A DNA stretch of 64,000 nucleotides from a virus: positions 22,020 through 86,019 of IMG/VR virus record IMGVR_UViG_3300033388_007160. One strand, given 5' to 3'. A model generated the notes under the pieces. It made no database searches and was not told where the DNA came from. It saw nothing but the letters and a program-made list of their open reading frames with translations. Below are positions 490 through 55,086 of the stretch, piece by piece. The number at the start of each line of letters is the position of its first letter. Position 1 is the first letter of the stretch. Position numbers and translations under genes: made by a program.

Positions 490-2687
490 GCAACGGCACA
501 CAATTGCTCACCGTAAAAGTCCGCAAGCCGACGAAGCTGCTCAGTCGGCCTTGGGAGACTAAGCTTGACTTGATTGGCCGGAATACTCGTGACCTCAACA
601 GTCACGGTGTCTATATCCAAAAACACGCGAAGGTTCTGATGTTGCCGCCGATTGTCAGGCCTGAAAACTACCCTTGGGCGAGAGCCGATTACACTCTTCA
701 CCCTTCTTCAGATGACTTCTTTGATGGCCGTAACTGGGGCGGGGCTGAAGGATATTACGTGGGCCACGTGGGCAATGCCAGCGAAGCCTGGGCTGCCTGG
801 CTGAGTCCTTCGCATACCATTGAAGCCGACCGGGGCTTGCAGGTTACGCTAATCTGGTCGCCGCCTGCTGGCGATGAAGTTGTGCCCCGCATTGAAATCT
901 TCCCCCGCATAGACTACAACCGTAGCACGACAATCAACGGCGTGACTTATTACTTTGCTCCACTTGCATTTGCCATCAATTCGCAGATGGTCTTCGAGGT
1001 TTATGAGTATGAATATGACAGCTATGAACAGTTCGAGAACAATCCTGCTCAGATACTTGTGCGGCGTTATCAGCATCCCATTCTGGCCCAGCGGGGCACT
1101 CAGATTATGGGCGTCTTCCGCATCATTCCCATTGAGGCAGACGGCTTCGTCGTGGAGTCGCCCATCCTCAAGGATGGTGGCTTTGTTTACATCAGCCGGA
1201 TACAGCGTGAGAATTTGAAGCTCTTCCCAGCAGGCGGTTGCGGCATAAGGTCTCTGGCCGGAGGATTTGCAGTTTTTAGCTTTGTTCCTTTGGAATTCCC
1301 AAGCGAAGGCTATGTAATTGGCCCCAAGCAAAGCAAACGACAGGAAGACGATAAATGGGTTTCGGTTAGTTTCCATGCTTACACGCCTACCGGCACGGCA
1401 GTGGCCGGGACCATTGTTGACCCCGAAACTGGCGATGTTATCACCACAGGCGAAACATTTCAGGAATACGCCTACAAGGTTACACTTTACTCAACCGACG
1501 GCATCCATACTCCGGTGGTTAATTATGTTAAGTGCGATGTGGAAGGCGAGACTGAGACCAGCTCAGAAGAAGAGATAGACATCTCCAATGAGGTCCGGAT
1601 TCAAGAGCAGGTTTCGGGCAACCTGATGGGCCATCGGGCTACGATTAGCCTGCACAATCCCAACGGTGAATATACGGAACTGGCCCTAAGGCCCATGAAT
1701 GAGATTGACGTGGACATCAAAGGCCAAGACCGGGCCATCTTCTATACCCTCAATCCCAAGATAGAACTCTGGAAGGTGCCGGAGAAGGAAGCACCCTGGA
1801 TTGAATGGGAATGCGGCGACATGTGGGTGCGCCTTGAGCATTATGTGCTGACAGATGAGGATGTTTATGACGGCCTCGACCTCAAGACTGCCGTGTCAAA
1901 CTTCCTGCAACGGCTTGGCATACCGTCGGATAAGATAGATATTGACGATGAAGCCTCGTCTATCATGCTGCCGAAGTCGCGCAGCTCACAAGACCCCCTC
2001 TTCCGGCCACGCCTTGGGGCAACGGCTGCTGAATTCCTGAGGGACTTGCATCACAAGTTCTGTTCCGACTGGATTATGCGTTTCCGAGGCGATGGCACGT
2101 TTGAATTGAAGCCTGCTGACTCCAGCACCATTGCCCGAACCTACTACCTAAGTCATGAAACCGCTGAGCAGCTATATCAGCAGGCCTTAGAAGATTATCA
2201 AGCGGGGCTGGGCGAAGAGCCTGACCCCGAAGATTATAGCTACTTTGTCTCCAATCTCACTGTAGAACTTTTGCACGACAAGTTTTACAACGAGATTTGG
2301 GTGATTGGCGAAGATTCAGCCACAGGCCGTCCTCTTGTCGCATTTTGGATGGACTACCGCAGTCAAACTGACCGCGATTATCTGTATTTCGTCGGCGAAA
2401 GACGAGTTGCTATCTTCATCACGCGCATTAACAATCAAGACATGCTCAATTTTGTATGCCAGCAAGCAGTCAACCGCTACGGCAAGGTAAGGCGACGGAT
2501 TTCGTTTAGGACGAAGTTTGACCCGGCCCTCTGGCCGGGAGACTTTATCCAGATTTACGGCTACGCCAATATATTCCGCGTAGAGAACATTGACACGAGA
2601 ATTGAACCCGGCACCGTGACGATGCGGGGAGGCGAACCGACCGATATAGTTGAGTGCCAGATTACAGCCATCGAATGGCCTACATAG
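486..2687 (+). CDS. Tail/baseplate hub-like structural protein
   Basis: 733 aa, acidic and beta-rich; ATGA overlap with previous gene; C-terminal DPALWPGDFI...FRVENI resembles tail hub ends. Confidence 0.55.
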   Translation: MSNGTQLLTVKVRKPTKLLSRPWETKLDLIGRNTRDLNSHGVYIQKHAKVLMLPPIVRPENYPWARADYTLHPSSDDFFDGRNWGGAEGYYVGHVGNASEAWAAWLSPSHTIEADRGLQVTLIWSPPAGDEVVPRIEIFPRIDYNRSTTINGVTYYFAPLAFAINSQMVFEVYEYEYDSYEQFENNPAQILVRRYQHPILAQRGTQIMGVFRIIPIEADGFVVESPILKDGGFVYISRIQRENLKLFPAGGCGIRSLAGGFAVFSFVPLEFPSEGYVIGPKQSKRQEDDKWVSVSFHAYTPTGTAVAGTIVDPETGDVITTGETFQEYAYKVTLYSTDGIHTPVVNYVKCDVEGETETSSEEEIDISNEVRIQEQVSGNLMGHRATISLHNPNGEYTELALRPMNEIDVDIKGQDRAIFYTLNPKIELWKVPEKEAPWIEWECGDMWVRLEHYVLTDEDVYDGLDLKTAVSNFLQRLGIPSDKIDIDDEASSIMLPKSRSSQDPLFRPRLGATAAEFLRDLHHKFCSDWIMRFRGDGTFELKPADSSTIARTYYLSHETAEQLYQQALEDYQAGLGEEPDPEDYSYFVSNLTVELLHDKFYNEIWVIGEDSATGRPLVAFWMDYRSQTDRDYLYFVGERRVAIFITRINNQDMLNFVCQQAVNRYGKVRRRISFRTKFDPALWPGDFIQIYGYANIFRVENIDTRIEPGTVTMRGGEPTDIVECQITAIEWPT

Positions 2688-2703
2688 GGGGCTTGACAGG
2701 CAT

Positions 2704-4110
2704 ATGCTGAGCGGTGATGCTTTACACAGGCTGCGAGAGGCAATCGAAAGAAAAATAGCACGCCAGGCTACTGGCGTGGAAGTTGTCCTTGACTACGGGG
2801 CCTCGCTTGAGAACCTGATAAAGACGTTGCAGCAGGCCGGAGAAACGATTGAAGGTGAAACTGTCTCACGCGGGGCCACGTGGTCTTATCTATTGCCCAG
2901 CAGCCAGTTTGGTTATGATGAGAGAACAATCGGATTGTGGCATTTCGAAGAAGGCAGCGGGGGCCAGGCCGCTGATGCGTCGCCTAACGGCAACACTCTC
3001 ACCTTGGTTGATACGACTTGGACAAGCGGCAAGTGGGGCAGTGGCCTGTCTTTTAACGGGTCTTCTAGCTATTGCTATGGCAGCCTCACTTACACTGAAC
3101 GCCTTGGGCACTACCTCTACGTCGCTGGATGGTTCAACCCATCGGGGAATGGGCCGCTGATTTACTGGCCTTCTGTTATCCTGCTTGCCATTGATAGCGG
3201 CAGACTGGTAGTTACCATTGATTCGGTTGACTATGTCGGGCCATCCGTCCAGACAGGCGAGTGGCAGCTCCTGCATTGTCAATTCTTTGACGGACGGGTT
3301 TATCTGGGCGTCAATGATGTTATCACCTGGCACGATCACAGCAGCGAGGAGCTTAGTCCCCTGTATTCAACTTTCTATGTGGGCCGAGATGATACGAGCT
3401 ATTACAACGGTCTCGCCGATGAGATACTTGTAGCTGCCGATGTGTTTGTGCAAGAAGACTTTCAGTATCCACGTGACTGGGCTTATACATCATCTATTGG
3501 CCACTGGCGCTTCAATGAAGGCGCAGGCAATATGGCCTTCAACCTGCTGATGTCTTACAGACCTCTGACGCTCGTCAATCATACTTGGACTGATGGCTGG
3601 CTGGGGTCGGCTGTGGCATTCAATGCGGATGGTTATGCATATTATGCACAAGATGCAACAAATCTCAGCCGTTTTGGGCTTGAAATGTGCGTCCAGTTTG
3701 ACGATGTGTCTGCTTCACAGGTTCTTGCTTATCAGGAGGGGGCTTTGCGGGTAACCTGGTCGCCGGGCCAGCTTGAGGTTTACATCGCAAGCCTTACACC
3801 AGCAACTTTCACCTTTGAACTGCCGACTATCAGTAGCAGCAACTGGTATATCATTTCGGTGCAATATGACAATAATGCAGTGACGGCCTGGCTGAATGGG
3901 CTTAAGGTAGGCGAAGCTTCGGCCAGTGGCACGGTTGATTTGGCTTCGGCCAATTTCTTGCTGGGCGGCGACGGCACAAACGGTTTGATAGGCAAGCTTG
4001 ACTACGCTATGATAAATCGTGGGCCGGTCAGGCCCTTCTATCGTGTGCTTCCACGCTGGCTTATCGGCCAGCATGGGTTTGAAAGGGCCGATGACTGGAT
4101 ATTACTTTAG
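2704..4110 (+). CDS. Virion protein with two LamG/concanavalin-A-like domains
   Basis: Two repeats GLWHFEEGSG / GHWRFNEGAG with GKWGSGLSFNG / GWLGSAVAFN and YNGLADE / GKLD. Confidence 0.8.
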   Translation: MLSGDALHRLREAIERKIARQATGVEVVLDYGASLENLIKTLQQAGETIEGETVSRGATWSYLLPSSQFGYDERTIGLWHFEEGSGGQAADASPNGNTLTLVDTTWTSGKWGSGLSFNGSSSYCYGSLTYTERLGHYLYVAGWFNPSGNGPLIYWPSVILLAIDSGRLVVTIDSVDYVGPSVQTGEWQLLHCQFFDGRVYLGVNDVITWHDHSSEELSPLYSTFYVGRDDTSYYNGLADEILVAADVFVQEDFQYPRDWAYTSSIGHWRFNEGAGNMAFNLLMSYRPLTLVNHTWTDGWLGSAVAFNADGYAYYAQDATNLSRFGLEMCVQFDDVSASQVLAYQEGALRVTWSPGQLEVYIASLTPATFTFELPTISSSNWYIISVQYDNNAVTAWLNGLKVGEASASGTVDLASANFLLGGDGTNGLIGKLDYAMINRGPVRPFYRVLPRWLIGQHGFERADDWILL

Positions 4111-4116
4111 TGGAGG

Positions 4117-4662
4117 ATGATAACCATGGTGCTGATGGCCTATGCAGTTGACCCTGTAACCCTGAGGAATTACGTGCGGCTTACCAACCGGCGCAAGATG
4201 CCCGAAGAGGAACTGCCTGAAGTTGAGTTGCCCGACAACGTTAAGATTGGCCCCACGGATAACTTGGGTAACATCCGGCAGAAGGCCATGCGGGCCTTGA
4301 TAACCTTCCTCTCGTCTGAACCCAAACCGATAGAAGAAGGCAGGTATGTCTGGATTGAAACAGCTCTACTGCCTATCATCGCCATTGACCCTACTAACTA
4401 CCAGATGGCTCTGCGGCATTTTGCTGACCAAGTGCAAAAGCTAAATATCTCAGCAGTGCGGGGTTACTGGTTCAAACCCAGCGAGTGGCAAGGGACTCGT
4501 CATTGGATACCGCCTTACTGGTTTACAGATTGGTCGGCCACGCTGATTCATGGATGCTTCGAGGAAGGGTATCACGAGTGGGAAGTACGGTCTCTTAAAG
4601 GCCAAAAGCGAAAAGAAACGAATTCAACCGAGGAGTGTAGCAAATATCACAAATGCACATGA
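4117..4662 (+). CDS. Hypothetical protein in tail module
   Basis: 181-aa ORF with GGAGG RBS, in operon. Confidence 0.6.
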   Translation: MITMVLMAYAVDPVTLRNYVRLTNRRKMPEEELPEVELPDNVKIGPTDNLGNIRQKAMRALITFLSSEPKPIEEGRYVWIETALLPIIAIDPTNYQMALRHFADQVQKLNISAVRGYWFKPSEWQGTRHWIPPYWFTDWSATLIHGCFEEGYHEWEVRSLKGQKRKETNSTEECSKYHKCT

Positions 4663-5948
4663 AAACACCGATTAAAAAGCTGCTTGTGGCCCTTCGTTAC
4701 TTACAGACCATATTCTCGCGCCGCGATGTGCTTTTCTCCATAGCCATGCTTGCCGCGCTGTATGGCGCCTGGCCCGCTCTCGAGGAAGCATTCACACAGC
4801 CGGACTTTTCCCGGAACTGGCAGCAGGATTGCGACCTGGTCCTCATTCACAAAGGCCTGGTGGAACATCCGCGTTTCAGGGATACGCTGCAGTGGTGGAC
4901 AGGGACATGGGTGGGGCAGGTGCCGTTCTGGAGGCCACTTACATCACTGCTGTTCTGGCTGGAATGGAAGTTGTTTGGGTGGGAGTTTCAAGATGCATGG
5001 ATGCTGGTGCACGGATTGCTGCATCTAGCTACTTGTGCAGCGCTGTTTGTTTTCGCCGACACATTTACGGGGAGTGCAACTATAGCCGCACTATCGGTAG
5101 CCTTCTTCTCGTTGCCGGGTCCGCTGCTTCCGTACGGCTTGCGGCTCTGGCATTCACGGGCATTCTGGGCGCTGTGGAGCTGGAAGGACCAGCCAGATTT
5201 GTTGCTGGGCTTGCTGACCATCGGCTCGTGTGCGCTCGCCCTCAGACGCCGAACGGTTTCCGCGCTGGCGCTGGCTACTAGTGCCGCAATGACCAAGGAA
5301 ACGGGCTTCGTCACGCTGCCGCTCGCGGGGGCCTTCCTTCAGCTTGCAGGGCGTGCCATCGGCCCTGCTCTCGGCGCGTTTGCCACTGTGATTTTGCTGG
5401 CGATAGCAAAGCTGAAGGCTACTGGCTTGGGATTCATCCTCGGAGCAAACATCCACTGGCCGGCTCGCTTGCTGTTGACAATCGGTGGTCTACCCTTGGC
5501 CAAGTTGGTGGGAGCGACATCTGGATATTGCGTGCTTGGGCTGACTGCGGCTGTAGCGCTTGTCTGGGCACGACCTTTGCGCTGGCTCGCTGCTTTCTGC
5601 GGAACAGCAATTGCCTGCGCCGTTCAGGCAGTCACACTTGCCAACACAGACGAGTCGCCGCCGTGGATTGTGGCCATCGTTGGTTTGTTCGACTGGAATC
5701 TTATATGCACCACTCTACCGGTAGCCGTATGGGTCGTCGTGGCCGCCTTCGGGGCTAGCAAGCAGGCTTTGTTGTCGGCTTTGGCCTATGCGGCGCTTGC
5801 GGCCCCTCCGGCGCTGGCACCCCAAGCTCTATCCCATGCTTATTACACAGCGTGGTGTTTTAGTGCAATAGCTATCGCGACTGCTTGGTGGTGTACATGT
5901 CAAAGGTTAAGACTAACGTCTGGCTGCCGCAGCAGACTTACAACGTGA
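4653..5948 (+). CDS. Polytopic membrane protein, GT-C-like glycosyltransferase
   Basis: Many hydrophobic segments; FWRPLTSLLFWLEWKLFG...HGLLH and AMTKE motifs typical of TMTC/GtrII-like GT-C proteins. Confidence 0.6.
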   Translation: MHMKTPIKKLLVALRYLQTIFSRRDVLFSIAMLAALYGAWPALEEAFTQPDFSRNWQQDCDLVLIHKGLVEHPRFRDTLQWWTGTWVGQVPFWRPLTSLLFWLEWKLFGWEFQDAWMLVHGLLHLATCAALFVFADTFTGSATIAALSVAFFSLPGPLLPYGLRLWHSRAFWALWSWKDQPDLLLGLLTIGSCALALRRRTVSALALATSAAMTKETGFVTLPLAGAFLQLAGRAIGPALGAFATVILLAIAKLKATGLGFILGANIHWPARLLLTIGGLPLAKLVGATSGYCVLGLTAAVALVWARPLRWLAAFCGTAIACAVQAVTLANTDESPPWIVAIVGLFDWNLICTTLPVAVWVVVAAFGASKQALLSALAYAALAAPPALAPQALSHAYYTAWCFSAIAIATAWWCTCQRLRLTSGCRSRLTT

Positions 5949-8900
5949 CGCTGCGGCTTCTCAATCAAAACCTCACGATCAATACGCTTTCTTCGCCCAC
6001 TAAGCGCATCTATATTAATGCGCTCGGCAGTGCCGAGATTGCATTTGACGAAGACCTGCGCACTGTGTTGGGGCCCGCGCCCGACGATCCGCCGAGCGAC
6101 CCTCCCGTACCAGGCTACGTGTGGGTCGGCGTTTACTGGGTATTTAAGCTCACGATCACCGCCCCTGGAGAAACACCTTCAGCCCCTAATACGGCAACGG
6201 TAGACTTGTTCATCTGGACAGGAACAGGCACGTGGGTCATGGCACCGCAAGAACTGCCGGACGGATGGGTGAGTCAGACGGGTAGCATGGACATCAACGT
6301 GCGCATTGAGGTCACTGGCGTGTACATGAAGGCCGAAACTAACGAGGAAGCCATCTATAGCAACGGAGGCATAATGGCTTTTGTGGAAAGAAGTTATACC
6401 GAGAGCTGGTTCGCGGATGAGAATGCAAGCGTCACCGTCACTGCGGTCGGCCCTAGCGGTGAGCAACTTTCCGTCTCAGGTCCACTAGCTGACGCCGGAC
6501 AGGAAGTTGAATTTGCTGCTGGCTGGAAACTCAACTTCGGGTGGACTATCCACCGTTACGACTATGAAGATGTTGTGTACGCGGCTGTTAGCGACATCGC
6601 CATATGCGAGATACCATTGGACCTCGGCAGGTTAGACCTTTACCGTCCAGGTAGCAACGTGCCTGACAGCACGCAACCCGAGTGGGGCCGCACGAAGACC
6701 CAAGACGACTGCTGTCGCGTCGGCCAAGCCGAAGGAGGAGCAGCTACTTGGCGTGAAGGGGAAGGCTGCGGCGGCGATATATCGTGGCGCGGCGCCGTCG
6801 GCATGCCCGTTCATGTCCACTTCAAACCGCGCACACATAAGCACGCTGATGACGTTGACTACCCCGACATCCTGGTCACGGGCACGCCCATTAATTGGCA
6901 ATATGATGAAGAGTCAGGCACCTACGTATCCGTTCCTGTCCAGTGGACAGGTGAACTCGAAGTCGTCCAGCAGGAGAAGAGCTGGGAATTTGACTGGGAG
7001 TGGAGAACGCTTTCGTCGTTGAAGCAATTCGTCAATGTGGTGCGCGATTGGCAAAAAGACCACGGAGAAGATGTTGGCAGCGACGATGATCCCAATCTTA
7101 ATGCGCAGGCCTGCCCGTTGCTTACCCATCCCCGTTCGGTAAGCAATCTGGAAGGCGACCCCACTGAAGAGTGGGGCACAGGTGTGACCGTATCTCATGA
7201 AGGTGAGAAAGCTGTATTCAAGCCGCCTGATGTATCTCGTCCGGGCAACTGGACGGGTTCCGGTGGGCTTACGCCCGATGCCAGTGTGGGAGATAATAAC
7301 GACATCTGGCATGTTGCTGCTGGTTCTACGGCCCCCACGGCCACTATGGTTATCCGCGAACGAAAGACTTCCCGCTTGGCTCGTGTTGTGGCACAAGACC
7401 CTGACCTGCCAAGTGAAATGAAACATCGCAACTTAATCATCTTGAATCGGGCAAATGTTGATACTTGGACGGAAGGCGGCAGCGATTATCTTGATCCTGA
7501 GGATGAGCGGTATCCCGAACATATCTGGCACTGGATGAATTACAGTTACGCCAAACTACGGATTAAGGCCCCAATGAGTGGCACAATTCGCATGACGGTT
7601 GACTATAAGTATCCAATGATTTTTGACCCCGGCTATCCGACACTGGAACCCGGTGAACTGACCGTAGACTGGATTGAAAAGACGGTCGTATATGAAGGGC
7701 ACGTCGAGAAAACTCCGGAAGGGGCTGACTACTCTGAAGTTGTCTTTGACTTGGCCTGCCCCAAGGAAGGCGAAATTGCCCCTCGGCTCTACCTCGTAAC
7801 ACGAGTTACCTTGCAATTGCCGCCACACACAGAAGACCTCACTTGGGAAATTGACGATCTCTATCTGCTGCCTTCGTATGTAGACGGCTCTTGGGGCGTA
7901 TCAATGCCGCCATGGTTTCAACTTCGGGTTTATGACCCGTGGGACTTCCTGTCGGATTATACGATGTTTGCGGGCTTGGTCGGCGGAGTGAAATGCTTGG
8001 ATATTCCTTATGGTTGGGAAGAACTTGAGCGGTATGAAAGGAGCTTGAAAGGCCGCCGTAAATGGCGTTCGCGGAATGAAGAAGTTTACTTCATGGACCA
8101 TTCTCGGCCACTCAGCGAATTGGCAAGCGACTTGTCATGGCAGGAAGGTTGGCAGGCGACGTATCATGAGCCGGAAGAAAGCACTGTCAACAAAGATGAA
8201 GATGGCAATAAACTGTTCCCCCAGTTCTACTGGTGGGACTTGCTACGTTCGCATGAATATACGGCCAACCCAGGTGATACTATCGAGCTGAAGCTATGTC
8301 CCATTGTGCGTTATTGGGAAGTGGTGGCAGGCATCAAACATGTAATCTACTACGAGAAATTCTTCCAAGGTCGTATTCACGGCATTGTAGTTAAGACTGA
8401 CCGGTCGGGACGCATCCGGAAAGACCTTGAAGTGGAAGGCTACCGGCGGCCTTCTGAGGGAGGCGAATGGGCGAAAGTTGATGAAACACCTGTAGATGGT
8501 CATGGGCGCTATCGTTTGGGGCCCTACCTTGAGAAAGGATATGACTATAAAGTCAGCGTCAACAGCAATTACATCACTGGCGTCGCCAACGCCAGATATT
8601 CGTGGATATCGGGAACTGGCATCGTCGGACCTGTGGGCGGTGCCATCTCGGCCACTGGCCCCCTCACCGAAATGGTGCATATCGCCTATACGGATAACGA
8701 CAACTATGCCGTGAAGCATCTGTTCACTTCACCAGGCGACCAGTGGTTTATTGGCCACATTCCTCAAGTGCCCTACGAACAGCCGAATACCGTGGTAGAC
8801 GCCCCGGCCCAAGGCCTAGCACTGTATCATGACATGTCCCGAAGGCTTCACTTGTTCACCGTAGAAGATGGCACTATAATCCATTATGAATCACAGGACT

Positions 8901-46274: not shown

Positions 46275-46356
46275 TGGTGGACGCGCCCGGGAATCGAACC
46301 CGGGTACCAAGCGCTGCACACCGGCCTTAGCGCTTGGTCGAACCTATTCTGCGCCC
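46275..46356 (-). ncRNA. Mini tmRNA-like RNA, tRNA-like domain only (copy 1)
   Basis: GGGCGC acceptor stem with G3.U70; GGTTCGAC D-region; 9-bp helix; TTCGATT T-loop; ACCA end; no anticodon arm. Confidence 0.75.
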
Positions 46357-46367
46357 ATACTGCATCA

Positions 46368-46955
46368 TTATATCCACTGGTAGGCGTCTTCAATAGCGCC
46401 CACAGCCTCGGCTACCAGCAGCCGATAAGGCCTAGGCAAGTCACTAAACAACTGCAGCCACCTGCCCAGCATGTTCATCTCCCTCAGCCCGGTTGACAGG
46501 TCTAGGGCCTCGGCTATCTCAGTGATGTCAAAACAAGCATCAATCGGTTCGCCGGTCACTTCTGCCCAGACCAGGGCCATGAAGACGGTTGCCGGGCCGC
46601 CGCTGCTACCGTAGTTACAGCTTGCCCATTCCACGCTCCTGACGATGTTGGCGGCCTTGGTCAGTTCCTTCCCACTGGGCCATAACTGTGCCGCTAGCTT
46701 AATCACCTGCAACAGGTCAATATCGCCTTCTTCTGCGTGAAGTGCGAAAGTCTCTGTATCAGTTTCCACGAATTCCACATCATCTTTGTCAATGCCGAAG
46801 CGCTTGAGGGCTTCAGCTATGGCGTATTTAGCACACGGCGCGATAAGCGCCCCAGCCCCCAGCACCCACATTGCAGTAGCCTTCTCCCTCAGTCCCTTAG
46901 GATACTTTTCGAAATTATCCGGCGTTGGCAAGCTCACGGTTACCATCGCTTTCAC
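46368..46955 (-). CDS. Hypothetical protein
   Basis: 195-aa ORF; start uncertain. Confidence 0.6.
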   Translation of the reverse strand: MKAMVTVSLPTPDNFEKYPKGLREKATAMWVLGAGALIAPCAKYAIAEALKRFGIDKDDVEFVETDTETFALHAEEGDIDLLQVIKLAAQLWPSGKELTKAANIVRSVEWASCNYGSSGGPATVFMALVWAEVTGEPIDACFDITEIAEALDLSTGLREMNMLGRWLQLFSDLPRPYRLLVAEAVGAIEDAYQWI

Positions 46956-52621: not shown

Positions 52622-54124
52622 TTATTCGAGGACAGGCCCTTCTGGCCCTTCCCAGTTTTCGATCACATCAACCAACTTATCCCAAACGAGGATGACCTTG
52701 AAGATGTTATCATTGAAGCCGCCGATGTCAAGAATGCGTGGATTCTGCGGCAGGTCGCTGGTGCCGTATGGGGCCAAGCAGACATTGACTACCCGAAGCT
52801 CCGGATTAAGGCCCAGAAGCTTTTTGATAGCCTCCCCCGCGTAGCCCCAGCTACCTGGCAACCAGGACTGCTCATCCGTAAGTATCACCACATAGTCAAG
52901 CTGGTTAGCATAGGCTGCTACCTTCTCAATGGCCTCGGCCAAATTGGTGCCACCGCCATCAACGTAAATCTGCTTGAAGATGTCATATGTTCGACTGGAG
53001 CGGCTGACTTTGCATTGTTGGGCCCCAGTGCCATAGCTGATTATCACGCCATTCTGAGCCTTCTTGAACGCTGCAGCAGCAAACAATCGGGCCACATCAA
53101 CCCGGCTGACCATTGACCTTGCACTCAAGAAGCCCAACATGCTGCCGCTCGTATCCACAAGCACACCTACACGGCCCAGTGAAGGCACATTGTCTGTTGC
53201 TATTTCTATGGCTTCAATCAGGGCGTCTTCGGCTTCCTGCTTGGCAGCCAAACTGATGTTCTCGTCTTCCAACTGCTGCACGCTTGCCAAGGCAGCCAGG
53301 AAACGGAACGGCATAATCTTGGGATGTCGGGCTGCTGCCAGAACTTTTTCTCTGTCAATTGGCACATTATGTTTAAGCAAGTTGCGCAGGTTGCGAATAT
53401 AAGCCATGGGCGGCATGATTTCAGCAGCCCTCATCCAAGTCTCATGGTTGCTGCCATAAGCGCTGATAAGAGATTCCCAAGTGGTGGCCTTGCCTTCCGC
53501 GTGGGCCTTAATCTCCTCAGGCGTATCTTCACCAACCTTGCCGGTTACAATCCACCTGAATGCGGCGGCCTGGGCTGCATCCTTGGGCTTCGGGTGAATA
53601 ACGTTCAGCACATCAACAAGGCTCCATTCGCGAGTTTTGCCACGATATTTGATAATCTCATACGGCGTCAAAGCTTGTAGCCTCTTGGCAATTGCTCTTC
53701 GCAGGGCCATAGGGATGGGGCCGCCATATACCTCTTTATATATAGCCAGTACTTCAGCGGGTTCATCGGCCCGTGCCATGATAACCGGCCCCCACTTGGC
53801 AACCCATGGCTTAGGTGCACATTCGTGGACTGGGTGCCCTGCCATCACAGCCAGCAAGAACTGCGGGGCCGTCCTCATGCCAAGTTCATGACGCAGCCAT
53901 GCAGCCAGCTTCAGCACGAATTCGGGGTCTTTGGTCCCAACTTCCAGCGCCAGATTCTTGATGGCCTCAGTGACTTCATGTTTGGTTGCGTAGAAGGTAT
54001 CTTCAAAGAAGTGTGTGGCACACCGCAGTGCCAGCTCCAGCTTGGGTGGATACTTGTAGGCCGGAGCCCCTTCATAGTTGACTGTCTTGCCTGCAGCCCG
54101 CTTAGGCTTGTTGAACTTAGCCAT
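52622..54124 (-). CDS. Ro60/Rsr TROVE-vWA RNA-binding protein
   Basis: NYEGAPAY; FVLKLAAWLRHELGMR; RADE; DVLNVIHPKP; TWES.IS; MAYIRNLRN; PFRF; vWA DTSGSM, GGTN and LTDEQ. Confidence 0.93.
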   Translation of the reverse strand: MAKFNKPKRAAGKTVNYEGAPAYKYPPKLELALRCATHFFEDTFYATKHEVTEAIKNLALEVGTKDPEFVLKLAAWLRHELGMRTAPQFLLAVMAGHPVHECAPKPWVAKWGPVIMARADEPAEVLAIYKEVYGGPIPMALRRAIAKRLQALTPYEIIKYRGKTREWSLVDVLNVIHPKPKDAAQAAAFRWIVTGKVGEDTPEEIKAHAEGKATTWESLISAYGSNHETWMRAAEIMPPMAYIRNLRNLLKHNVPIDREKVLAAARHPKIMPFRFLAALASVQQLEDENISLAAKQEAEDALIEAIEIATDNVPSLGRVGVLVDTSGSMLGFLSARSMVSRVDVARLFAAAAFKKAQNGVIISYGTGAQQCKVSRSSRTYDIFKQIYVDGGGTNLAEAIEKVAAYANQLDYVVILTDEQSWLPGSWGYAGEAIKKLLGLNPELRVVNVCLAPYGTSDLPQNPRILDIGGFNDNIFKVILVWDKLVDVIENWEGPEGPVLE

Positions 54125-54143
54125 CGAAATTCGTCCTCCTTTC

Positions 54144-54182
54144 AAAATAAAAAGCGCCGTCCCGCACGATGCGAGACGACGC
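54144..54182 (-). terminator. Intrinsic terminator/attenuator immediately upstream of the Ro60 RBS
   Basis: GCGUCGUCUCGCA-UCG-UGCGGGACGGCGC, 13 bp with 2 G.U, plus UUUUUAUUUU. Confidence 0.85.
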
Positions 54183-54219
54183 CCCGTCTATGGGCTGAGA
54201 GCCCGGAGGTTGAATGCTA

Positions 54220-54293
54220 TTGGCACGAGAATAACGACAACGGCACGGTTCAGCTCCAAAGGCTGAAGTAACCGTTGTCTCGCATCGTGCCAA
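54220..54293 (-). ncRNA. Y-RNA-like element, proximal
   Basis: Ends pair (GGCACGA/UCGUGCC); internal loop UGCGA; helix GACAACGG/CCGUUGUC; GGUUACUUC motif shared with the distal copy; adjacent to Ro60. Confidence 0.75.
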
Positions 54294-54318
54294 ACTTCTT
54301 TTGAATTTTCAAGGTTGA

Positions 54319-54416
54319 GCGCGTAGAGTATATTGGTTGCGGTACTTTTTCCAGCCGCCTCAATGGCGGAACCGGATTTCGAGTCCGGAAGTAACCGCAA
54401 CCTCGCAGCTACGCGC
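54319..54416 (-). ncRNA. Y-RNA-like element, distal, YrlA-like
   Basis: GCGCGUAG/CUACGCGC; UGCGA; GGUUGCGG/CCGCAACC; T-arm-like CCGGA-CUCGAAA-UCCGG; 5' end 7 nt from a -10 box. Confidence 0.8.
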
Positions 54417-54422
54417 AGGTTT

Positions 54423-54451
54423 AGTATACCACAATGCAGGCAATTCTAAAC
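54423..54451 (-). promoter_or_regulatory. Promoter of the Y RNA-Ro60-tRNA operon
   Basis: GTTTAG-N14-TGGTATACT. Confidence 0.75.
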
Positions 54452-54465
54452 ACTGGTGAAGCAAA

Positions 54466-55086
54466 GTGCTGGCTATAATCAGTTTGGCTCTGTCTTTAGC
54501 CCAAGCGCCCAACTTGGCACTCATCTACCATACCGACAGGCTTTTCAGTTACCGCCTCGTGGCCGACCGGCCCCTGCCCAAAGGCAGCCTGCTTATCCTT
54601 ATTACTAAGAGTCCCCTGCAGGCCACCGGCCCCGCTTTGAGCTGGAAGAAAACGATTTACTTCGGCAGCATTGCTGCTTGGCGAAAGACAGACGAACGAA
54701 TCAGACGTTATTACCAGTCATTCGACGTAACGACGTGCTATCCGGCCAGGCTGGGCAAGATTTTCTGGGTTCTTGCCACACCTTCTGGTTGTTGGTGGGG
54801 CGTTTGCTGGGGGCCATGCAGTCCGATGCGGTATAATAGTTTTGGGCACGCGAGTGGGCTCGGCGGCGGGGAGAGCCGATGTGCGCCCCGCTGCACGCGG
54901 GTTCGAATCCCGCCGTGTCCACCAGCGTTCAAGTTTGTGAACAGGCCCAGCAGGGTAAACTCTCCACGAAATGAAGAGGAAGGTTCAGCGAATCATCAAT
55001 GCCCTCAACCGCTGGTGGGAACTGCGCCGGTTCCCCGAGAGGCTGAAGTATCAACGTTTTCTGGAGCGCAATCTCTTCAATCTTGA
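54466..55086 (+). CDS. Possible secreted protein; true 3' end probably before ~54830
   Basis: Signal-peptide-like N-terminus; C-terminal part overlaps an RNA gene and the next ORF. Confidence 0.3.
   Translation: MLAIISLALSLAQAPNLALIYHTDRLFSYRLVADRPLPKGSLLILITKSPLQATGPALSWKKTIYFGSIAAWRKTDERIRRYYQSFDVTTCYPARLGKIFWVLATPSGCWWGVCWGPCSPMRYNSFGHASGLGGGESRCAPRCTRVRIPPCPPAFKFVNRPSRVNSPRNEEEGSANHQCPQPLVGTAPVPREAEVSTFSGAQSLQS
54844..54924 (+). ncRNA. Mini tmRNA-like RNA, tRNA-like domain only (copy 2)
   Basis: GGGCACG/CGTGTCC acceptor with G3.U70; no D-stem; 8-bp helix; GCGGG-TTCGAAT-CCCGC; ACCA; TATAAT at 54832-37. Confidence 0.8.

What the first reader, a model, noticed from the sequence alone, without database searches (positions are those of the whole stretch)
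54832..54924. Tag-less mini tmRNA: an 81-nt RNA made only of the tmRNA tRNA-like domain
Seen: GGGCACG-CGAGTGGGCTCGG-CGGCGGGG-AGAGCCGATGTGCG-CCCCGCTG-CAC-GCGGG-TTCGAAT-CCCGC-CGTGTCC-ACCA. It has a 7-bp acceptor stem with G3.U70, discriminator A, encoded CCA, an unpaired D region, a 3-nt connector and a canonical T arm. An 8-bp helix with a 14-nt loop replaces the anticodon arm. TATAAT sits 7 nt upstream. Established: this is the architecture of the tmRNA TLD (AlaRS identity, SmpB site), but the whole mRNA-like domain is missing. TLD-only forms are known to me mainly from some protist mitochondria. Inference: an SmpB/EF-Tu decoy blocking trans-translation, a tag-free ribosome-rescue RNA, or a Ro60 ligand. 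It lies about 430 bp from the Y RNAs.
Basis: partly seen in the sequence, partly recalled or inferred. Interest (0 to 1): 0.9.

Follow-up and report, generated by a model that had tools for sequence, protein, structure and literature searches.

The report
Two phage tag-less mini-tmRNA genes
This uncultured phage carries two diverged genes for an ~81-base RNA that is only the alanine-accepting, tRNA-like end of the bacterial ribosome-rescue RNA (tmRNA); the type is already known from mycobacteriophage DS6A, where it blocks rescue, and what is unusual here is the second copy and a possible tie to the neighbouring Ro60 RNA-repair genes.

Summary
Window 54844-54924 (+) matches Rfam tmRNA end to end with 303 internal model positions deleted (51.1 bits, cut-off 47). 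ARAGORN calls neither a tRNA nor a tmRNA there. A second, 66%-identical copy lies at 46275-46356 (-). Seven base pairs are changed on both sides between the two copies, and both keep G3.U70, A73 and CCA.

The kind is not new. Mycobacteriophage DS6A's 'TLD only' tmRNA has the same architecture, and such an RNA inhibited tmRNA in E. coli (reported in PMC4131195 and PMC11915505, both citing Mao 2009). This scan has also reported the kind many times on other DNA. A pattern scan here found more than 40 distinct members in viral contigs, with strong covariation.

Three things are particular to this window:
- It holds two copies; 40 other carrier records hold one each.
- Each copy has a TATAAT box just upstream.
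- Copy 1 shares its whole acceptor stem and T arm with a conserved 211-235-nt RNA inside bacterial Ro60-YrlA-RtcB operons (Variovorax, Polaromonas and one more genus).

The family at large is not tied to Ro60 (0 of 41 carrier records).

Most likely function, inferred only: the RNA is alanylated and bound by SmpB, and competes with host tmRNA. No expression data were found.

The parts
54832..54837 (+). TATAAT -10-like box of copy 1, 6 nt before G1
   Evidence: TATAAT as a word is at chance frequency in the window (18 seen, 16.4 expected). Yet it lies 6, 10 and 8 nt upstream of copy 1, copy 2 and the mini of the relative G045. The variant contig L248 has CATAAT here. No -35 box was found by the consensus scan.
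54844..54924 (+). Mini-tmRNA copy 1 (81 nt). Acceptor stem 54844-54850 with 54914-54920; D region 54851-54862; P2 helix 54863-54871 with 54886-54894; apical junction remnant 54872-54885; connector 54895-54896; T arm 54897-54913; ACCA 54921-54924
   Evidence: RF00023 at 51.1 bits, above the gathering score of 47. Fold. Family model alignment. ARAGORN makes no call. 75% GC against 51-57% for the window. Identical in variant contig L248.
46275..46356 (-). Mini-tmRNA copy 2 (82 nt): same architecture, D region with GGUUCGAC, A7.C mismatch at the last acceptor pair and a 6-bp T stem
   Evidence: RF00023 at 34.9 bits, E 7.6e-14. R1 at 57.8 bits; it was not in the model's seed. Fold z -3.18. Nearest relative of copy 1 at 66% identity. 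It sits in a ~100-nt gap between two co-directional ORFs.
46367..46372 (-). TATAAT -10-like box of copy 2, 10 nt before G1, overlapping the stop codon of the upstream ORF
52622..54145 (-). Neighbour, membership uncertain: Ro60 (TROVE + Ro60 vWA) gene, divergent from copy 1
   Evidence: Pfam PF05731 at 53.3 bits and PF25045 at 32.6 bits.
54190..54420 (.).
   Evidence: Sequence. No Rfam Y-RNA family match at E<=1. This region differs by an indel of about 105 nt in variant contig L248.
52538..52612 (-). Neighbour: tRNA-Glu(UUC) just downstream of Ro60
   Evidence: ARAGORN and Rfam tRNA at 66.5 bits.

Best explanation
These are two paralogous genes for a TLD-only (CDS-less) tmRNA-type RNA of the kind first seen in mycobacteriophage DS6A.

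Shown: each gene encodes an ~81-nt RNA. It has a 7-bp acceptor stem with G3.U70, A73 and CCA, a T arm, a tmRNA-type D region, and helix P2a capped by the stump of the P2a/P2b junction. There is no pseudoknot, resume codon or tag frame. The phage encodes no SmpB.

Inferred:
1. Each gene is transcribed from its own -10 box. Copy 2 lies in the leftward replication-gene block. Copy 1 heads the rightward block that runs on to the lysis and terminase genes.
2. The RNA is charged with alanine by the host AlaRS and bound by host SmpB.
3. It therefore competes with host tmRNA for SmpB, EF-Tu and stalled ribosomes.
4. The net effect is that host ssrA tagging is blocked. Stalled ribosomes either stay unrescued by tmRNA or receive only one alanine without a degradation tag.
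For: - Identity: RF00023 match at both ends of the model, above the cut-off. The second copy scores E 7.6e-14.
- Relation to DS6A: DS6A's published 'TLD only' gene (L010:28478-28560) has the same length and layout. It scores 65.1 bits with R1, a model built without it.
- Family structure: 94% of cells are paired against 66% in shuffles and 45-53% when partners are slid. Twenty of 23 pairs show changes on both sides.
- Selection on structure: seven pairs are changed on both sides between the two window copies.
- Alanine identity: G3.U70 and A73 are present in all five members found without a pattern that forces them. These are the two window copies, DS6A, Alone3 and G045.
- Apical motif: it maps to the 'GAa' internal loop and the base of P2b in the Rfam tmRNA consensus, so the RNA reads as a deletion derivative of tmRNA.
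- No phage SmpB.
- Literature: a TLD-only RNA 'strongly inhibits tmRNA, perhaps by titrating SmpB' (PMC4131195). [quoted passage not shown] SmpB binds the TLD and enhances alanylation (PMC3022190).
Against: - Nothing here shows expression, charging or SmpB binding of these two RNAs, and the host is unknown.
- According to PMC4131195, inhibition in E. coli did not need chargeability. The strict retention of G3.U70, A73 and CCA is therefore not explained by pure SmpB titration. It points instead to an act on the ribosome (rival 1).
- Copy 1 departs from the family's UCGAC...GGAC junction: it reads UCGGC...GCAC.
- Copy 2 has an A.C mismatch and a 6-bp T stem, so its acceptor/T stack is one layer too long.
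- Copy 1's acceptor stem and T arm equal those of a Ro60-operon RNA of Comamonadaceae, not those of that host group's canonical tmRNA.
- I could not read Mao et al. 2009 itself.
Confidence: 0.5

Rival explanations
1. Productive tag-free rescue. Ala-mini-tmRNA with SmpB and EF-Tu enters stalled ribosomes and accepts the nascent chain. The peptidyl-RNA is then released (drop-off with peptidyl-tRNA hydrolase, or ArfB-type release). The phage thereby recycles ribosomes on broken mRNAs without marking its own proteins for ClpXP or Lon.
For: - The alanine identity set and the CCA end are kept in every unbiased member. Titration alone would not require them (PMC4131195).
- CDS-less tmRNAs of mitochondria co-occur with imported SmpB and are thought to help with incomplete mRNAs (PMC11915505).
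- Two copies in blocks of opposite orientation would give supply through the infection cycle.
Against: - The only experiment on record, as cited, shows inhibition of tmRNA function, not rescue.
- Without an mRNA-like domain there is no stop codon to end the event, and no release route is shown.
- There are no expression data for these RNAs.
Confidence: 0.25
2. Part of the Ro60 RNA-surveillance module. Copy 1 is the phage's minimal form of an Ala-acceptor, TLD-ended RNA that belongs to bacterial Ro60-Y RNA-RtcB repair operons. It works with the adjacent phage Ro60 and Y-like RNAs (bound, gated or repaired by them) rather than, or besides, acting on SmpB.
For: - Copy 1 lies ~700 nt from the Ro60 start, with the Y-like RNAs in between.
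- Its last 27 nt match exactly in only 20 bacterial genomes of 185,579 species: 19 Variovorax and 1 Polaromonas.
- In those genomes the match ends a conserved ~233-nt RNA whose 5' strand is also GGGCACG. That RNA lies between rsr with YrlA (Rfam 69.4 bits) and rtcB.
- The same RNA family occurs next to an Rsr that is 64% identical, in another genome, with a compensatory C6-G67 to U6-A67 change and G3.U70 kept.
- Phage Alone3 has a mini 5.4 kb from its Ro60.
Against: - 0 of 41 mini-carrying records encode TROVE and 1 of 41 encodes RtcB.
- 9 of 10 Ro60 phages have no mini.
- The TerL relative G045 has a mini but no TROVE.
- The conserved ~55-nt core of the bacterial RNA is absent from the window.
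- The two Ro60 proteins are only 27% identical, and the downstream ORFs are unrelated.
- Copy 1 is on the strand opposite to Ro60, and copy 2 is 6 kb away.
- The RNA lacks the long 5'/3' stem with the GNCGAA motif that binds Ro60 (PMC4201824).
- Phage Ro60 genes often simply sit among tRNA genes.
Confidence: 0.15
3. An odd or intron-bearing tRNA (for example a tRNA-Ala variant) rather than a tmRNA relative.
For: The acceptor stem, T arm and CCA are shared with tRNA. Copy 1's D region can form a 4-bp hairpin.
Against: - ARAGORN makes no tRNA call.
- The tmRNA model outscores the clan's tRNA models.
- There is no 7-nt anticodon loop.
- Fourteen apical nucleotides are too few for a loop plus any known intron type.
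- There are no spacer nucleotides at positions 8-9.
- The apical motif is conserved as the tmRNA P2a/P2b junction.
Confidence: 0.03
4. A non-functional remnant: an attP-type fragment of host ssrA or a decaying tmRNA pseudogene.
For: Phages often integrate into ssrA and carry its 3' end. tmRNA fragments of this origin are known (PMC4131195).
Against: - Both halves of the TLD are present and pair.
- Seven compensatory double changes separate the two copies.
- The family covaries.
- The complete genome has no tyrosine integrase.
- A relative with a TerL only 39% identical keeps a mini, with a TATAAT box, upstream of its terminase gene.
Confidence: 0.02

Closest known systems
'TLD only' (CDS-less) tmRNA of Mycobacterium phage DS6A (tmRNA Website tmID 11587 / Phage__Mycobacterium.9; JN698994 28478-28560)
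   Same: - Phage-encoded and 81-83 nt.
- Acceptor stem with G3.U70 and A73, tmRNA-type D region, P2a helix closed by a short cap, and a T arm.
- No tag frame.
- It scores 43.2 bits with RF00023 and 65.1 bits with R1.
   Different: - DS6A has one copy, ends ACUA rather than ACCA, and infects an actinobacterium.
- Its genome has an RtcB-like ligase but no Ro60.
- This window has two diverged copies, each with a TATAAT box, and copy 1 lies next to Ro60.
- Sequence identity to DS6A is about 63% in the model alignment.
Canonical one-piece tmRNA (Rfam RF00023)
   Same: The tRNA-like domain is shared: acceptor stem, D region, P2a, T arm, CCA, and the purine-rich internal loop after P2a.
   Different: All 303 internal model positions are missing. 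These comprise the pseudoknots, the resume codon, the tag reading frame and its stop codon.
CDS-less organellar tmRNAs (jakobid and oomycete mitochondria, Rfam RF02544; ~65-bp plastid forms of Mallomonadaceae)
   Same: They are reduced to the TLD, have no tag frame, and are presumed to act with SmpB (PMC11915505).
   Different: Those are the organelle's only tmRNA and work with an imported SmpB. Here the RNA is an extra, viral copy that enters a cell which presumably has its own full tmRNA. In clan competition RF00023, not RF02544, was the best match.
YrlA-type bacterial Y RNAs with a tRNA-like module (Rfam RF02553; M. smegmatis YrlA is cut by RNase P and receives CCA)
   Same: Both are tRNA mimics encoded beside Ro60. 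One of them can gain a 7-bp acceptor stem and CCA (PMC4201824).
   Different: YrlA has a Ro60-binding stem with a GNCGAA motif and a permuted tRNA-like module, and has no G3.U70 identity claim. The window RNA has none of the Ro60-binding features and gets no YrlA match.
211-235-nt TLD-ended RNA inside rsr-YrlA-rtcB operons of Variovorax, Polaromonas and one further genome (L237:5638-5870, L245:2073-2304, L266:192-402). I found no description of it in the papers searched
   Same: The acceptor stem (7 of 7, with G3.U70), A73, CCA and the whole T arm are identical to copy 1. It also neighbours Ro60 and Y RNAs.
   Different: It carries a large, conserved central domain (~55-nt invariant core) that the phage lacks. 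It lies on the same strand as rsr and is followed by rtcB. It is not recognised as tmRNA at Rfam's cut-off. Its function is unknown.

Membership tests
tmRNA tRNA-like domain (RF00023) / TLD-only subclass | Covariance-model match to both ends of the tmRNA model at or above Rfam's gathering score | tested here: met
   Copy 1 scores 51.1 bits against a cut-off of 47, matching model positions 1-374. Copy 2 scores 34.9 bits, below the cut-off but with E 7.6e-14. It scores 57.8 bits with the family model R1, which was built without it.
tmRNA tRNA-like domain (RF00023) / TLD-only subclass | Alanine identity: 7-bp acceptor stem with G3.U70, discriminator A73 and a 3' CCA | tested here: met
   Both copies have it, read directly from the sequence. 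Copy 2 has an A7.C mismatch at the seventh pair.
tmRNA tRNA-like domain (RF00023) / TLD-only subclass | T arm with a canonical T loop, and a D region without a regular D stem that carries GG and UCGAC | tested here: inconclusive
   The T arm is canonical in both copies. Copy 2 has GGUUCGAC. Copy 1 has GGGCUCGGC and can form a private 4-bp hairpin.
tmRNA tRNA-like domain (RF00023) / TLD-only subclass | Helix P2a in place of the anticodon arm, supported by covariation | tested here: met
   The helix is 8-9 bp in both copies, with 5 pairs changed on both sides between them. Across the family, 7 of 8 P2 pairs covary.
Full tmRNA (functional trans-translation template) | mRNA-like domain: resume codon, tag reading frame ending in a stop codon, and pseudoknots | tested here: not met
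   Only 14 nt lie between the P2 strands. ARAGORN finds no tag peptide. The RNA is therefore filed under the CDS-less subclass, not as a full tmRNA.
tmRNA tRNA-like domain (RF00023) / TLD-only subclass | Alanylation by AlaRS, binding by SmpB, delivery by EF-Tu | not testable with these tools
   The phage has no SmpB of its own and the host is unknown. A bench test is needed.
Y RNA / Ro60 ligand | Long stem formed by the 5' and 3' ends, with the conserved Ro60-binding motif (GNCGAA in YrlA), encoded within 4 kb of Ro60 on the same strand | tested here: not met
   The ends form only a 7-bp acceptor stem with a free ACCA. There is no Rfam Y-RNA match at E<=1. The gene is on the strand opposite to Ro60. 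Criteria are taken from PMC4201824.
tRNA | Cloverleaf with a 5-bp anticodon stem and a 7-nt anticodon loop | tested here: not met
   ARAGORN makes no call. The tmRNA model wins within the tRNA clan. There is no 7-nt loop.
ssrA-derived attP fragment | Only the 3' part of ssrA, next to an integrase, in a temperate phage | tested here: not met
   A complete TLD with its 5' strand is present. The complete genome has no PF00589 integrase.

The most novel reading that the evidence does not exclude
Copy 1 is the minimal, phage-borne form of a so far undescribed alanine-acceptor, TLD-ended RNA that is a regular member of bacterial Ro60-Y RNA-RtcB RNA-repair operons. On this reading the phage island (Ro60, Y-like RNAs, tRNA-Glu, mini-tmRNA) is one working module. 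It would couple RNA-damage surveillance to ribosome rescue, for example as a counter to host nucleases that cut tRNA or mRNA during infection.
Probability: 0.15. Interest if true: 0.8.

Novelty: new member of a known kind. Interest (0 to 1): 0.45.

Why it matters
Trans-translation is the main ribosome-rescue route of bacteria, and how phages deal with it is barely studied. A single phage TLD-only tmRNA has been published and tested. This window adds a clean, complete-genome example with two diverged paralogues that keep the alanine identity set. That retention argues the RNA must be charged and therefore acts on the ribosome, not merely as an SmpB sponge.

The side finding may matter more. A conserved RNA with the same acceptor stem and T arm sits inside bacterial Ro60-YrlA-RtcB operons. 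If that link is real, it connects the Ro60/Y RNA repair systems, whose effectors are still unknown, with aminoacylatable tmRNA-like RNAs, and it gives a direct handle for experiments. In practice, standard annotation misses these genes: ARAGORN called none of the roughly 40 found, and Streptomyces phage Alone3 has one unannotated.

Tried and rejected
- blastn of 54200-55000 against 50,697 phage records: no match.
- A pattern built on the two copies' shared apical motif plus T loop hit 5 viral contigs. None of the three whose records could be searched holds a tmRNA match, so I took them as chance.
- The search for related loci with the single Ro60 protein and the single TerL protein: no close relatives. 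A TerL alignment then reached relatives of at most 39% identity.
- The look-up of sequencing runs: no RNA holder listed. The best DNA holder is a sediment metagenome holding 0.40 of the words.
- Mao et al. 2009 is not held. Its result is cited only through PMC4131195 and PMC11915505.
- The 206-aa ORF (54466-55086) that runs through copy 1 translates to an implausible protein and has no PHROG match, so I rejected nesting in a gene.
- The 363-nt spacer upstream of copy 1 has no significant fold, z -0.74.
- The Pfam TROVE search of 201 Burkholderiales genomes was too insensitive; it missed Variovorax's own Rsr. I replaced it with a protein search.
- The identity of the mini between this phage and variant contig L248 is not significant on its own. 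Five of 37 80-nt bins also carry no mismatch.
- I did not use complex prediction or structure prediction, because the finding is an RNA.
- I could not infer the host. The canonical Variovorax tmRNA has a different acceptor stem.

Full report
**1. Observation**

- It has a 7-bp acceptor stem, GGGCACG/CGUGUCC, with G3.U70.
- It has a 12-13-nt D region.
- An 8-9-bp helix capped by 14 nt stands where a tRNA has its anticodon arm.
- A two-to-three-nt connector leads to a canonical T arm, then discriminator A and CCA.
- TATAAT ends 6 nt before G1.

Rfam's tmRNA model matches it from model position 1 to 374 with 303 internal positions deleted, at 51.1 bits (gathering score 47) and E 3e-17. ARAGORN calls no tRNA or tmRNA there. 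The minimum-energy fold reproduces the stems. The RNA is 75% G+C in a window of 51-57%.

The window belongs to a complete 86-kb viral genome with terminal repeats. That genome holds exactly one more such gene, at window 46275-46356 (-).

**2. The two copies**

In a model-based alignment they are 66% identical, and each is the other's nearest relative in my sample. Seven base pairs differ on both sides between them: one in the acceptor stem, five in P2 and one in the T stem. G3.U70, A73, CCA and a 10-nt apical motif (GCCGRUGUGC) are kept. This is the signature of selection on structure since an old duplication.

Copy 2 is less regular. Its seventh acceptor pair is an A.C mismatch and its T stem has 6 bp, so the coaxial stack is one layer long.

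TATAAT is no more frequent in the window than chance (18 seen, 16.4 expected). By my arithmetic from those counts, finding it 4-12 nt upstream of both genes on the right strand has a chance of about 1e-6. A distant relative, G045, has it too. A 96%-identical variant contig has CATAAT.

Across the wider family a -10-like word at that place is only modestly enriched: 13 of 44 against a background of 14%. Many members lie inside tRNA arrays. Own promoters therefore look like a trait of this lineage.

**3. What it is**

The literature already holds this kind.
- Hudson, Lau and Williams list 'Mycobacterium phage DS6A (TLD only)'. They state that a similar molecule, chargeable or not, strongly inhibits tmRNA, perhaps by titrating SmpB (PMC4131195).
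- The 2025 database paper repeats that it inhibits the endogenous tmRNA in E. coli. It lists CDS-less tmRNAs of mitochondria and of some plastids (PMC11915505).

I located the DS6A gene at JN698994 28478-28560 (43.2 bits). It has the same length and layout.

Of the 80 loci fetched, 40 distinct sequences of 71-91 nt start with GGG, pair their ends, and are not called by ARAGORN.

I built a covariance model from 13 of them (R1). It finds DS6A at 65.1 bits and copy 2 at 57.8 bits, and neither was in the seed.

On the model alignment of 51 distinct sequences:
- 94% of cells pair, against 66% in shuffles and 45-53% when partners are slid;
- 20 of 23 pairs show changes on both sides.

Two caveats apply. 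The alignment is fitted to the model. The pattern also fixed UCCACCA, the T loop and GYCGA, so those columns say nothing. Five members were found without that pattern: the two copies, DS6A, Alone3 and G045. All five have G3.U70 and A73.

This scan has reported the same kind many times on other DNA.

**4. Anatomy of the cap**

In the family, the nucleotides after P2 read (U/G)AAAGCC, followed by a 2-4-bp hairpin and one or two purines. In the Rfam tmRNA consensus, P2a is followed by a three-nt 'GAa' internal loop and then P2b starting 'cacccc'. The mini-tmRNAs are therefore tmRNAs cut off just above the P2a/P2b junction, not tRNAs that lost an anticodon.

**5. Context and rejected readings**

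- The ORF that runs through copy 1 is not a plausible protein. Copy 1 lies 46 nt before the first gene of the rightward block, which leads to an M15 peptidase and the terminase.
- Copy 2 sits in a gap of the leftward block, which holds a beta-clamp-like gene and a helicase.
- The genome has no SmpB, RtcB or tyrosine integrase, so I reject an attP remnant.
- A normal or intron-bearing tRNA is rejected on ARAGORN, on clan competition in Rfam, and on the size of the cap.

**6. Is Ro60 involved?**

Against:
- None of 41 mini-carrying records (11 of them at least 90% complete) encodes a TROVE protein, and one encodes RtcB.
- Of ten Ro60-encoding phages from different groups, only Streptomyces phage Alone3 has a mini. 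It is an unannotated 80-nt gene in its tRNA array, 5.4 kb from Ro60.
- Phage Ro60 genes commonly sit among tRNA genes.
- A relative with 39% TerL identity has a mini about 4.9 kb upstream of its terminase gene but no TROVE.

For, and unexpected:
- The last 27 nt of copy 1 match exactly in only 21 places among the representative genomes of 185,579 species. One is a contig of a near-identical phage, binned into an Aenigmatarchaeota MAG. The others are 19 Variovorax and 1 Polaromonas.
- In Variovorax the match ends a conserved ~233-nt RNA that also begins GGGCACG. On one strand it lies after Rsr (Ro60) and Y RNAs, one of which reaches Rfam's YrlA cut-off, and before an unknown ORF, RtcB, an MBL-fold protein and RlaP.
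- It is not the canonical tmRNA. That gene lies elsewhere, scores 192 bits and has another acceptor stem.
- A homologous 211-nt RNA follows an Rsr of 64% identity in another genome. It has a compensatory change in acceptor pair 6, keeps G3.U70, A73 and CCA, and shares a ~55-nt invariant core.

That core is absent from the window. The two Ro60 proteins are 27% identical, and the downstream ORFs are unrelated.

I read this as a real lead that copy 1 may be tied to the Ro60 module, at roughly 15%. It is not a demonstration.

**7. Mechanism**

Shown: architecture, covariation, identity elements and absence of a phage SmpB.

Established elsewhere: SmpB binds the TLD, raises alanylation and brings tmRNA to the ribosome (PMC3022190). 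A TLD-only RNA inhibits tmRNA in E. coli.

Inferred: the phage RNAs are charged, bind host SmpB and compete with host tmRNA. All unbiased members keep the alanine set, although titration reportedly does not need charging. This makes me think the RNA goes to the ribosome. Whether the outcome is blockage or tag-free rescue is open; I put these at 0.5 and 0.25.

Having two copies is unusual: each of 40 other carrier records has one. The two lie in oppositely oriented gene blocks, which would allow expression at different times. That is inference.

**8. Limits**

- No RNA data exist for this virus.
- The host is unknown, but bacterial features argue against the archaeal label of the MAG: a beta-clamp-like gene, an M15 peptidase and heptosyltransferases.
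- The mini is identical between this phage and its 96%-identical variant, but several other 80-nt bins are too.

**9. Verdict**

This is a real feature and a new member of a known, little-studied kind. The second copy and the bacterial Ro60-operon RNA keep it moderately interesting.

Noticed in passing
L237:5638-5870 (-), L245:2073-2304 (+), L266:192-402 (-), and L235-L255 generally: A conserved 211-235-nt RNA sits in bacterial rsr (Ro60)-YrlA-rtcB-rlaP operons of Variovorax, Polaromonas and one further genome. It has a 7-bp acceptor stem with G3.U70, A73, CCA and a T arm, plus a ~55-nt invariant core. It is not recognised as tmRNA at Rfam's cut-off, and ARAGORN calls it tmRNA only in Polaromonas, with a non-conserved frame. 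I found no description of it in the papers searched.
   Followed up: partly
L248 (QMZP01000018.1, 'Candidatus Aenigmatarchaeota archaeon B8_G16'): This MAG contig labelled as a DPANN archaeon is a 94-96% identical variant of this phage. It holds Ro60, two tRNA-Glu genes (CUC and UUC) and an identical mini-tmRNA. A TerL 98% identical to the window's is also filed under the same taxon label. The phage's bacterial-type genes suggest mis-binning.
   Followed up: partly
OR725492.1 18155-18234 (L143:1501-1580): Streptomyces phage Alone3 has an unannotated mini-tmRNA (R1 54.9 bits, G3.U70, CCA not encoded). It lies in a gap of its tRNA array between tRNA-Val and tRNA-Ser, 5.4 kb from its Ro-like gene.
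   Followed up: partly
L155:3389-3463 (+): A viral contig with a TerL 39% identical to the window's has one 75-nt mini-tmRNA of the same GGGC...GUCCACCA subgroup. TATAAT lies 8 nt upstream, and the gene is ~4.9 kb before its terminase gene. No TROVE gene is present in the record, which is 79% complete.
   Followed up: partly
window 54430-54843: This is a ~400-nt stretch without a credible ORF between the Y-like RNAs and copy 1. A further TATAAT lies at 54474-54479. The fold is not better than shuffles (z -0.74), and the stretch carries fewer differences from variant contig L248 than the Y-like region does.
   Followed up: partly
window 54223-54366 versus L248:4797-5045: The Y-like RNA region is the one part of the Ro60 locus that does not align between the two phage variants (143 nt against 248 nt). 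The number or form of the Y-like RNAs therefore differs between near-identical phages.
   Followed up: no
window 46275-46356 (-): Copy 2 has an A7.C mismatch and a 6-bp T stem, so its acceptor/T stack is 13 layers instead of 12. Whether RNase P, the CCA-adding enzyme, AlaRS or EF-Tu would accept this is unknown.
   Followed up: no
L133, L136, L137, L141 (Gordonia phages Rabbitrun and VanLee, Streptomyces phage Alone3, Rhizobium phage TM30): Ro60 genes of unrelated phages lie inside or beside tRNA gene arrays, as in this window (tRNA-Glu 10 nt after Ro60). This looks like a general habit of phage Ro60 genes.
   Followed up: no
L083:1-531 and 1431-6581: One viral contig picked up by the pattern scan carries a ROOL RNA (327 bits), a full-length tmRNA and about 25 tRNA genes in a row.
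   Followed up: no
L131:4524-7487 (genome 4524-7487, before the window): A single 987-aa ORF combines a prohead protease domain (Peptidase_S77) with a T4 Gp23-type major capsid domain. The preceding 1048-aa ORF holds an ATP-dependent DNA ligase domain within the head gene block.
   Followed up: no
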